A program made the translations under genes and the position numbers. A stretch of 64,000 nt of DNA from the human T2T-CHM13v2.0 reference genome, Homo sapiens. The notes beneath the pieces are model-generated. The model had not been told where the DNA came from, searched no databases, and saw only the letters and a program-made list of their open reading frames with translations. The stretch is taken from the NCBI RefSeq assembly GCF_009914755.1, contig NC_060934.1. One strand, written 5' to 3'. This document shows positions 19,308 through 21,260 of this stretch, one piece after another; position 1 is the stretch's first letter; the number at the start of each line of letters is the position of its first letter.

Positions 19308-19389
19308 TTTTGGATACTGATTATCCCATTTGAACACCTATCTAATCATTGGTTTGTAAGCTAAGAATAGCATAACTTCAATAAACTGA
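19308..19389. repeat. Arm A of 82-bp long-range inverted repeat (intron 6)
   Basis: Reverse complement of 21179-21260 at 78/82 positions. Confidence 0.95.
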
Positions 19390-20274
19390 TTTTATCCCAC
19401 AGTCTAAACAGAACTATGGCATGGCAAGTACTTTACTAAATGTAAATACTCAGCGTGCTGGCTGCCATACATTCAAACAGCATCTGACTCTAGTGCCTGC
19501 TTAATCTCACTTCTCTTGGAAGACCAAGAAAAGACAGAATTAAGTACATAAATGTCAATGTCTATATCCCCAACTTTTGCCCAAAGTCAAAGAAAAAAAT
19601 CCAGAATGACTGCCCTCCCTGCTCTAAGCTACCAAGGAAAGAAGTCCTGAGAATGCCTACCATTTACACATGTCAATATTTAAAATAATCAGAACACTGT
19701 GGAACAAACAGGAAATTTTTCTTTGTCCTTTTACACTTAAAATCATTTTCAAGGTCCCTAACCTAGGACCTCCCTTTTTCATTAAATATCTTGAAAGATT
19801 CTATTTCTTCAAACAACAATAAATACATATATTTACATGCACTATAATAATTAATGCTAACATGATCTAACTAGTTTTTCAAGTATGTCTGCAAATTTTT
19901 TTAATTTAGCAAAGTGAAGAACAAACACATGATCAAAATATTGACACACAAAGCAATCTGAAAAGAGTTACGGTGTTTACAGTGTTGTTAACATGACAAA
20001 AATCTTCAATCAAATACTATTTTATATTATAATTCAATAGTATTTGCCAGGGCATGAAACTCAGGACTGGTACACATGAACTTCCATGCTATACTGCTTA
20101 CATTACATAATTAACTCAAGAGATGAAAGATGTTCTTTAGAAAAACAAATCAATGCACGGCATGTTTTTAACTAAGCACAAACATTCCTCATGCCATATG
20201 CTTTCAGAATACTTGCTGCAATTAATGATGCTACATGTATACTGCAAACTTAGTTGAAACCATCAGTAACTTAC

Positions 20275-20366
20275 TCCAGAGAAAAGTTGGGTATATGCTC
20301 CAAACCCGTGTCAGCATGTCCAACAGGTTCAACACGACTGTTATCCTCTTCTGTCCCATCCTCATC
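20275..20366 (-). CDS. PARD3: PARD3 coding exon (exon 6, 92 nt), linker before PDZ1
   Basis: Reads [30 protein letters not shown](D). Acceptor CTCTAG|, donor GA|GTAAGT. Starts in phase 0 and ends in phase 2, in frame with exon 7. Confidence 0.95.
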
Positions 20367-21178
20367 CTAGAGGCAGCCAACACAAAGAAAAGTACACTCT
20401 GTGTTAGGTTTCTTGCTACAATGTGAAAGGAAACTGGATAAAATGGAAGTCTAATAGGCATTATGATCTTGGTAACTGTTTCCTCTAAGAAGGATGACCT
20501 TTAATGACAGGATCAGTGTGTGTTGTAAAAAGCTAAAATTGAAAACAAGAGTCTCATGAGATAGTGTATCCCAGAAGGTGAATAAGATATACTACTGTGA
20601 TAAGGAAAGAAAACAAAAAAACAAAGAAAAAACTTATCTTTATGCTAATTTTCTTATCTGGTCATTTTTCATTTCTTTTCATGTATATTTTAGGAAGTAA
20701 TTACATATTACTCCATTGTTACAATGTATTGATAAACAAATATACATGACATTGGAAATGCATGTCTGAAAACAGCTTCCTACTCAAAACAGTTACAACG
20801 ATTATAAACCATAACCATTACCAAAAGCTTCAAAGTCATGTTTCTCAGTTCTTGATTCCTGCTAACACAGCTTGTCAAAAGGAACAGGCAGTGGTATAGT
20901 TCCAGATTTTACAGGCTTCATCCCGTAAAATTTCACATAAAGTTACCCTAAGCCAATCGACTGATTATTTAGAGGTATCTGTAAAGGTATTAAGGTCTTA
21001 GCCATAATGGACCACTTTTGTTTACTTCTGTGCATGAAGGACCAAACAAAAGGACAAGCTAAAGTAACAAAGTACTCAGCCCCCATCCTCCTATGCTTCC
21101 TTTGACAAAGGCAATATTTTGTACAAATTGCTCCAATGTGTTGCAGAAATTCAATAAGTTTGCTGGTGTTTACACATG

Positions 21179-21260
21179 TCAGTTTAGTGAAGTTATACTA
21201 TTCTCAGCTTACAAACCAATGATTAGATAGGTGTTCAAATGGGATAATCAGTATTCAAAA
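21179..21260. repeat. Arm B of 82-bp long-range inverted repeat (intron 5)
   Basis: Reverse complement of 19308-19389 at 78/82 positions. Confidence 0.95.

What the first reader, a model, noticed from the sequence alone, without database searches (positions are those of the whole stretch)
19308..21260. Apparently unique 82-bp inverted repeat symmetrically bracketing PARD3 exon 6
Seen: 19308-19389 and 21179-21260 are reverse complements at 78/82 positions, with a perfect 49-bp core (19314-19362). The mismatches are at 19313, 19363, 19371 and 19381. In the transcribed (minus) strand two of the four become G-U wobbles and one is an A-C mismatch. The arms lie 812 nt upstream of the acceptor and 885 nt downstream of the donor of the 92-nt exon, and I do not recognise them as any transposon. 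Established: intronic duplexes that loop out an exon promote skipping or back-splicing, and long duplexes are ADAR substrates. Inference: this is a dedicated, non-Alu pre-mRNA structure controlling exon 6 inclusion. Alternatively it is the scar or substrate of a ~1.8-kb inversion.
Basis: partly seen in the sequence, partly recalled or inferred. Interest (0 to 1): 0.85.

Follow-up and report, generated by a model that had tools for sequence, protein, structure and literature searches.

The report
Unique inverted repeat bracketing PARD3 exon
Two 82-base copies of a sequence found nowhere else in the human genome sit in opposite orientation on either side of one PARD3 exon; they could pair in the RNA, but they look more like a one-off local duplication than a proven splicing switch.

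Summary
Window 19308-19389 and 21179-21260 are reverse complements at 78 of 82 positions, with a 49-nt perfect core. The arms lie 885 and 812 nt from the 92-nt exon at 20275-20366.

The whole 3.1-Gb assembly holds only these two copies, and each arm's 1.1-kb neighbourhood is also unique. This is not an Alu, not a dispersed transposon and not a known RNA family. Homology stops sharply at both ends of the arms.

On the transcribed strand the arms form a predicted duplex of -124 kcal/mol. It persists in a 2.35-kb fold. Skipping the exon would put a stop at the first codon of the next exon.

My best reading (about 55%) is a single, probably primate-age, local inverted duplication. At neutral rates the age is 25 Myr (range 7-66). 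Its RNA duplex would be incidental: a likely ADAR and dsRNA-binding-protein substrate, and at most a weak promoter of unproductive skipping.

A selected splicing switch is not excluded (about 15%). Conservation, editing, crosslinking and isoform data could not be reached with these tools. Interest is moderate to low.

The parts
21179..21260 (-). 5' arm on the pre-mRNA. It lies in the long intron upstream of the exon and ends 812 nt before the acceptor.
   Evidence: One of only two genomic copies. Its 1.1-kb neighbourhood is unique.
19308..19389 (-). 3' arm on the pre-mRNA. It lies in the 2412-nt intron downstream of the exon and starts 885 nt after the donor.
   Evidence: The second genomic copy. 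Its 1.1-kb neighbourhood is unique.
19314..19362 (.). Perfect 49-nt core of the repeat. Its partner is 21206-21254.
   Evidence: A run this long has probability 0.117 given 4 mismatches placed at random in 82 positions, so it is not significant in itself.
20275..20366 (-). 92-nt PARD3 coding exon enclosed by the arms. It starts in phase 0 and its length is not a multiple of 3.
   Evidence: Hub annotation. Translation and splice-site dinucleotides. Skipping gives a stop at the first codon of the next exon.
19390..21178 (-). 1789-nt spacer that would form the loop of the RNA stem-loop. It holds the exon, and the centre of symmetry (about 20284) falls inside the exon.
   Evidence: In the fold of 2353 nt, 79 of the 82 nt of the 5' arm pair with the 3' arm.

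Best explanation
One arm is a single-event, lineage-specific local copy of the other. A discrete 82-bp piece of unique PARD3 intron was copied once, in inverted orientation, about 1.8 kb away. The likely route is a template switch during replication or a templated insertion during break repair. It happened to land on the other side of a 92-nt constitutive exon.

Since then the two copies have drifted apart by 4 substitutions. If neutral, that gives about 25 Myr, with a range of 7-66 Myr at 1e-9 per site per year.

Because both arms are transcribed within the PARD3 pre-mRNA, they can form a near-perfect 82-bp duplex that encloses the exon in a 1.8-kb loop. I expect the consequences to be incidental: binding of dsRNA-binding proteins and helicases, promiscuous A-to-I editing by ADAR, and at most a low level of unproductive exon skipping.

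Shown: the repeat, its uniqueness, its sharp ends, the predicted duplex, and the frameshift on skipping. Inferred: the copying mechanism, the age, and every effect on the RNA.
For: - The arms are each other's only relatives in 3.1 Gb. They sit in unique flanks.
- Homology ends abruptly. Gapped local alignment of the 300-nt outer and inner flanks scores at shuffle level: 259 of 500 and 207 of 500 shuffles reach the observed score. The unit is therefore a discrete 82-mer, not the conserved core of an older, larger duplication.
- Divergence is 4 of 82 with no CpG. The JC distance is 0.050 (CI 0.014-0.131), which fits primate-age neutral drift.
- Two of the four differences break pairing (A-C and C-U). 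Nothing suggests preferential preservation of pairs.
- The exon's length (92 nt) and the immediate stop after skipping make an efficient loop-out costly. Kalmykova et al. 2021 (PMC8052449, passages seen) report that conserved complementary pairs that loop out exons are depleted, and that looped-out exons have lower inclusion.
- Local inverted repeats of this grade are not rare in human DNA. In the rows of Lirex Table S1 that I saw (part 1 of 4, about 2.4 Mb of one contig), 5 rows have arms of 80 nt or more, and 1 of those has mismatch <= 0.051. Those rows are not filtered for transposons.
- From the hub table, PARD3 spans about 706 kb and has 25 exons. By my arithmetic, a 1.8-kb spacer placed at random in the gene has roughly a 5% chance of enclosing an exon.
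Against: - No outgroup genome could be consulted, so recency is inferred only from divergence under neutrality. If both arms are old and conserved, this reading fails.
- No clean junction signature was found. There is no target-site duplication, and only a TTTT/AAAA microhomology at the outer ends.
- The centre of symmetry falls inside the 92-nt exon. Given that the exon is enclosed, the chance of that is about 92/1697, or 5%. It is a coincidence the neutral model does not explain, although it was noticed after the fact.
- My own base-rate sample found no comparable repeat. None of 97 inverted same-piece pairs in 200 kb of random genome reached >=90% identity, >=50 nt and spacer <=5 kb. Unique repeats of this grade are therefore not shown to be common.
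Confidence: 0.55

Rival explanations
1. One reading: a selected pre-mRNA structure. The duplex is maintained because looping out the exon tunes PARD3 output. It would act through regulated unproductive skipping (stop codon, nonsense-mediated decay), through back-splicing, or as a platform for ADAR, DHX9 or ILF3.
For: - Strongest complementarity across the exon in the window, and the only inverted match at >=90% identity, 1 of 234.
- Duplex of -124.4 kcal/mol. It persists in the 2353-nt fold and is worth 107.5 kcal/mol there.
- Placement around the exon is nearly symmetric.
- Skipping gives an immediate stop, as unproductive-splicing switches do.
- Two of the three transition differences are G-U wobbles on the transcribed strand.
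- A-to-I sites are strongly enriched in pairs below -30 kcal/mol (PMC8052449, passages).
Against: - No conservation, editing, crosslink or isoform evidence was obtained.
- 82 near-perfect pairs is far more than selection for an RNA helix needs, and it is what a recent copy looks like. The ends are sharp.
- Two differences break pairs. A 2:1 split of wobbles between the strands is uninformative.
- Exon loop-outs are depleted among conserved pairs.
- PARD3 does not occur in the 3 held supplementary files of PMC8052449. Those files are not the full catalogue.
- The published circPARD3 comes from exons 16-22, not this exon (PMC7686732, passages).
Confidence: 0.15
2. Scar or substrate of a roughly 1.9-kb inversion. 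The arms would be the inverted duplications left by staggered breaks, or they would drive recurrent inversion of the exon by recombination between the arms.
For: Inverted arms flanking a short unique segment is the expected geometry. The perfect core is 49 bp.
Against: - The enclosed exon is in the gene's orientation, in frame with the next three exons, and has AG/GT splice sites. This haplotype is therefore not inverted relative to the working gene.
- An inversion would destroy an essential gene's reading frame.
- 82 bp is short for homologous recombination in mammals (recalled knowledge, not tested here).
- No population data were reachable.
Confidence: 0.05
3. Terminal inverted repeats of a rare DNA transposon, or two independent insertions of one rare repeat family.
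For: 82-nt inverted termini about 2 kb apart resemble a transposon outline.
Against: - Only 2 copies exist in 3.1 Gb.
- There is no target-site duplication. The flanks read ...TTCTA | arm and arm | AGGTG....
- Sensitive blastn (word size 7) of the arms plus 300 nt each side against 200 kb of random genome gave no hit better than E = 0.02. The two hits that reach the left arm's outer edge lie mainly in the T-rich tract beside it, and no hit lies within either arm.
- The interior holds an in-frame coding exon of the host gene.
- The genome search can miss copies below roughly 85% identity.
Confidence: 0.05
4. A duplicated DNA-level regulatory element or small-RNA gene. The 82-mer itself would be functional (a transcription-factor-bound element or an orphan intronic small RNA), and the second copy a by-product.
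For: The unit is discrete and of small-RNA size. It ends in CUGA and has a degenerate UGAU-type box near its 5' end in one orientation (my reading).
Against: Rfam gives only chance-level hits in the arms: E = 4.1-8.4 and 11-16 bits against gathering scores of 36-45. The wider scan found nothing in the arms. There is no terminal stem. No expression or binding data were available.
Confidence: 0.05

Closest known systems
Long inverted repeats (LIRs) of the human genome as defined for Lirex (Wang and Leung): stem >30 bp, identity >85%, spacer <2 kb
   Same: It meets all three criteria: 82 bp, 95%, 1789 nt (criteria from PMC5414712 passages). It is intronic, like the primate-specific intronic LIRs those authors mention.
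   Different: It is made of sequence with no other genomic copy. I expect many LIRs to be pairs of transposon fragments, but I did not test that. It also encloses a coding exon.
Intronic complementary sequences flanking looped-out or circularised exons (inverted Alu pairs and non-repetitive pairs in circRNA biogenesis; recalled knowledge)
   Same: Reverse-complementary segments lie in the two introns flanking an exon. A stable duplex is predicted on the transcribed strand.
   Different: The arms are not Alu. The enclosed exon is only 92 nt. No back-splice or skipped product was seen, and the only circPARD3 I found in print comes from exons 16-22.
[quoted passage not shown] 2021, PMC8052449)
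   Same: Both arms are intronic, less than 10 kb apart, and the energy is far below the -15 kcal/mol cut-off.
   Different: Membership needs both arms to lie in vertebrate-conserved elements, which could not be tested. At -124 kcal/mol this duplex lies far below the catalogue's most stable class (below -30 kcal/mol). Exon loop-outs are the depleted class in that catalogue.
Templated sequence insertions and template-switch inverted duplications (replication or repair by-products; recalled knowledge, plus the search listing only)
   Same: A discrete short unit was copied once from a nearby donor in inverted orientation. Its ends are sharp and it has no transposon hallmarks.
   Different: No outgroup shows the empty site. 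Junction microhomology is limited to TTTT. The 1.8-kb donor-to-copy distance is larger than the short-range switches described in great-ape genomes (title and abstract only).

Membership tests
Long inverted repeat (Lirex / Wang-Leung definition) | Stem >30 bp, identity >85%, spacer <2 kb | tested here: met
   82 bp, 95%, 1789 nt. Criteria read.
Dispersed transposable element / transposon TIR pair | Further copies of the sequence elsewhere in the genome | tested here: not met
   2 of 2 matches are the arms themselves. This holds for the DNA searches at E up to 10 and for a 37-mer with up to 3 mismatches. There is no significant hit in the 200-kb sample. Copies below about 85% identity could be missed.
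Dispersed transposable element / transposon TIR pair | Target-site duplication directly outside the two termini | tested here: not met
   The flanks ...AAATTCTA and AGGTGCAT... share no duplication.
Alu / SRP-derived repeat | Similarity to 7SL/SRP RNA | tested here: not met
   The Rfam scan finds an SRP-like match only at 22835-22950 and nothing in the arms.
Known structured RNA family (Rfam 15) | Covariance-model score at or above the gathering threshold | tested here: not met
   Best hits are 11-16 bits against thresholds of 36-45, with E = 4.1-8.4.
Intronic complementary sequences that loop out an exon | Reverse-complementary segments in both flanking introns that can form a stable duplex on the transcribed strand | tested here: met
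   -124.4 kcal/mol. 79 of 82 nt are paired arm to arm in the 2353-nt fold. This is a prediction only.
Intronic complementary sequences that loop out an exon | An observed skipped or back-spliced product of the enclosed exon | not testable with these tools
   No RNA-seq or circRNA database was available. The published circPARD3 is exons 16-22.
PCCR (Kalmykova et al. 2021) | Both arms inside vertebrate-conserved intronic elements, with compensatory substitutions | not testable with these tools
   No vertebrate genomes or alignments are held. PARD3 is absent from the 3 held supplementary files, which are not the full catalogue.
PCCR (Kalmykova et al. 2021) | Arms <10 kb apart, hybridisation energy <= -15 kcal/mol | tested here: met
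   1789 nt apart, -124.4 kcal/mol. Criteria read.
ADAR substrate / edited long dsRNA | Documented A-to-I sites in the duplex | not testable with these tools
   No editing database was available. The duplex holds 27 and 29 adenosines and one A opposite C, at 21255/19313.
Templated insertion / template-switch inverted duplication | A discrete copied unit with sharp ends and a nearby donor | tested here: met
   No homology beyond either end. The donor and the copy are 1.8 kb apart.
Templated insertion / template-switch inverted duplication | An empty site in an outgroup, and microhomology at the junctions | tested here: inconclusive
   No outgroup was available. The only microhomology is a TTTT shared by the arm start and the adjoining flank at the left site.

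The most novel reading that the evidence does not exclude
Both arms are conserved well beyond primates. The 82-bp non-repetitive duplex would then be a built-in switch in an essential polarity gene. When it forms, the 92-nt exon is looped out and the transcript hits a stop at the first codon of the next exon, which sends it to nonsense-mediated decay or makes an N-terminal-only PAR-3. Helicases such as DHX9, or ADAR editing that weakens the stem, would set PARD3 dosage. That would be an unusually long, unique-sequence example of structure-controlled unproductive splicing.
Probability: 0.12. Interest if true: 0.65.

Novelty: new member of a known kind. Interest (0 to 1): 0.3.

Why it matters
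If the duplex forms in cells, it is one of the longest non-repeat intramolecular dsRNA stems placed around a coding exon of an essential gene. PARD3 dosage matters for epithelial and neural polarity. A stem whose formation leads straight to a stop codon would link dsRNA helicase and ADAR activity to PAR-3 levels.

It would also be a clean test case, free of Alu, for how far apart complementary arms can lie and still influence splicing in vivo.

If it is a neutral by-product, as I think more likely, it still has two uses. It is a dated example of a local inverted templated duplication. It is also a probable non-Alu site of hyper-editing to keep in mind when interpreting editing or dsRNA-sensing data at this locus.

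Tried and rejected
- **Common repeat.** Rejected. The genome searches find only the two arms, and their neighbourhoods are unique.
- **Known RNA family.** Rejected.
- **Larger, older duplication with a conserved core.** Rejected. There is no flank homology.
- **Transposon with a target-site duplication.** Rejected.
- **L1-type retrocopy.** A T-run lies 19 nt outside the left arm. The sequence between the arm and the run has no counterpart at the right arm, and no duplication flanks either arm, so this was not supported.
- **Paralogue test.** The exon's 30-residue peptide matches only itself in the genome. An equivalent PARD3B exon could not be located this way, and the test was dropped.
- **Base-rate sampling.** 200 kb (20 random 10-kb pieces) gave 0 comparable repeats among 97 inverted pairs. 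The sample is too small to bound the genome-wide frequency usefully.
- **Literature, searches that found nothing.** Two searches found no paper on this repeat: 'PARD3' + 'conserved complementary regions' gave 0 papers, and the 37-nt core string gave 0 papers.
- **Literature, listings only.** 'PARD3' + 'inverted repeat' + 'intron' gave 4 papers, and 'PARD3' + 'exon 6' gave 25 papers of which 15 were listed. No listed title or abstract start concerns this repeat. I saw only the listings.
- **Other collections.** The core 37-mer is absent from the prokaryote genome contigs and the viral contigs.

Full report
**Observation**

The repeat is real and is as described. The repeat finder reports arms 19308-19389 and 21179-21260, 82 nt, 95% complementary, 1789 nt apart. 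A base-by-base comparison gives 78 of 82 matches, with mismatches at 19313, 19363, 19371 and 19381. The perfect core is therefore 19314-19362, 49 nt.

The exon at 20275-20366 has AG and GT at its borders and reads in frame with the three following annotated exons. The arms lie 812 nt upstream of its acceptor and 885 nt downstream of its donor.

The match is not a chance event: blastn E is about 1e-30 within the window. It is the only one of 234 inverted self-matches (E <= 1e-8) in the 64-kb window that reaches 90% identity. I could not verify the label 'exon 6' from the table I was given. The exon encodes 30 residues just ahead of the first PDZ-type sequence.

**Is it a repeat family?**

No. 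Three kinds of search of the window's own 3.1-Gb assembly find exactly two places, the arms themselves:
- the left arm as the query;
- a 201-nt piece around the right arm, with E up to 10;
- a 37-nt core pattern with up to 3 mismatches, where the backwards control found 0.

Searches with 1.1 kb around each arm again find only the query itself and the opposite arm, so the flanks are unique too. The tool warns that only the best candidates are scored and that diverged copies can be missed.

As a second, more sensitive check, I ran word-7 blastn of each arm plus 300 nt on either side against 200 kb of random genome (20 pieces). No hit was better than E = 0.02. The two hits that reach the left arm's outer edge lie mainly in the T-rich tract beside it, and no hit lies within either arm.

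Rfam finds an SRP/Alu-like match at 22835-22950 and nothing in the arms. Scans restricted to the arms give only chance-level hits at E = 4.1-8.4. No target-site duplication flanks the pair.

Even if the 82-mer once derived from some old, rare element, the two arms are far closer to each other than to anything else. One is therefore a local copy of the other.

**Shape of the duplication**

The homology stops abruptly at both ends. Gapped local alignment of the 300-nt outer flanks and of the 300-nt inner flanks scores no better than shuffled sequence: 259 of 500 and 207 of 500 shuffles reach the observed score. This is therefore a discrete 82-nt unit, not the surviving core of a larger, older duplication.

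The four differences are three transitions and one transversion, and neither arm has a CpG. The Jukes-Cantor distance is 0.050 (95% CI 0.014-0.131). Under neutrality at 1e-9 per site per year this is about 25 Myr, with a range of 7-66. A 49-nt perfect run has probability 0.117 given four randomly placed mismatches, so it carries no signal.

**RNA potential**

PARD3 is transcribed from the minus strand, so both arms are in the pre-mRNA. Together they give a duplex of -124.4 kcal/mol, with two G-U wobbles, one A-C and one C-U.

In a minimum-energy fold of 2353 nt of the pre-mRNA, 79 of the 82 nt of the upstream arm pair with the downstream arm. Forbidding that pairing costs 107.5 kcal/mol.

Between the 2.4-kb downstream intron and the 43.6 kb of upstream intron held in the window, the next-best inverted match is a 71-nt, 80% repeat fragment. 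These are thermodynamic predictions. Nothing here shows that the stem forms in cells.

**Consequence of a loop-out**

The exon is 92 nt and starts in phase 0. If it is skipped, the first codon read in the next exon is a stop. A loop-out that worked efficiently would therefore inactivate the transcript.

In the catalogue of conserved complementary pairs (PMC8052449, passages only):
- pairs that loop out exons are depleted, more so the more stable they are;
- looped-out exons have lower inclusion;
- A-to-I sites are strongly enriched in pairs below -30 kcal/mol (odds ratio 13.2).

PARD3 does not appear in the three supplementary files held for that paper, but those are not the full catalogue. 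The only circPARD3 I found in print comes from exons 16-22 (PMC7686732, passages).

**Base rate**

Lirex defines long inverted repeats as stems >30 bp, >85% identity and spacer <2 kb. It reports 656 in a 7.08-Mb human contig (PMC5414712, passages). In the part of its Table S1 that I saw (part 1 of 4, about 2.4 Mb), 5 rows have arms of 80 nt or more, and 1 of those has mismatch <= 0.051. These rows are not filtered for transposons.

In my own 200-kb sample, 0 of 97 inverted same-piece pairs reached >=90% identity, >=50 nt and spacer <=5 kb.

From the hub table, PARD3 spans about 706 kb and has 25 exons. By my arithmetic, a 1.8-kb spacer dropped at random into the gene would enclose an exon about 5% of the time. 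Bracketing an exon is thus unusual but not extraordinary. The near-central position of the exon is a further coincidence of about 5%, noticed after the fact.

**Verdict**

The most likely reading (about 55%) is a one-off, probably primate-age, local inverted duplication of unique intron sequence, made by template switching or templated repair. It incidentally created a strong potential dsRNA stem around a constitutive exon. I expect that stem to be bound, unwound or edited, rather than to act as a regulator.

Nothing tested contradicts it directly, and the decisive data could not be reached: cross-species alignment, editing sites, proximity ligation, junction counts and arm deletion.

The remaining readings are each unlikely: an inversion scar, a transposon, or a regulatory or small-RNA element.

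No paper in the searched library holds the core sequence or links PARD3 with conserved complementary regions. The listings show nothing relevant.

From my own knowledge and not from any call:
- ADAR prefers an adenosine opposite cytosine;
- mammalian homologous recombination needs longer homology than 82 bp;
- templated sequence insertions are a described class of human variant.

Noticed in passing
window 22835-22950 (+): A match to metazoan SRP RNA below the gathering score (42.6 bits, E = 1.1e-08). It is most likely an Alu element about 1.6 kb beyond the right arm.
   Followed up: no
window 19266-19288 (+): A T-rich run (TTTTTTATTACTTTTTTTTTTTT), which reads as an A-run on the transcribed strand. 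It lies 19 nt outside the outer end of the left arm. There is no counterpart at the right arm and no flanking duplication, so it is not tied to the repeat.
   Followed up: partly
window 18595-18709: A fragment in the downstream intron matches about ten other places in the window at 70-84% identity in both orientations. It is presumably an old interspersed repeat, and it is the only other complementarity across the exon.
   Followed up: no
window 17905-17940 (+): A simple repeat (AAACC/AAAAC units) lies 43 nt from the acceptor side of the 84-nt exon at 17779-17862. It matches a similar tract near 47996-48040 in inverted orientation at 94%.
   Followed up: no
window 19320-19328 and 19392-19399: The 8-nt word TTATCCCA occurs inside the left arm and again directly after its inner end, 72 nt apart (start to start). 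It is possibly junction microhomology and possibly chance.
   Followed up: no
window 20277-20366 (-): The 30-residue peptide of the enclosed exon matches only itself in six-frame search of the whole genome, even at E up to 10. The equivalent part of the paralogue PARD3B is too diverged, or absent, at this sensitivity.
   Followed up: partly
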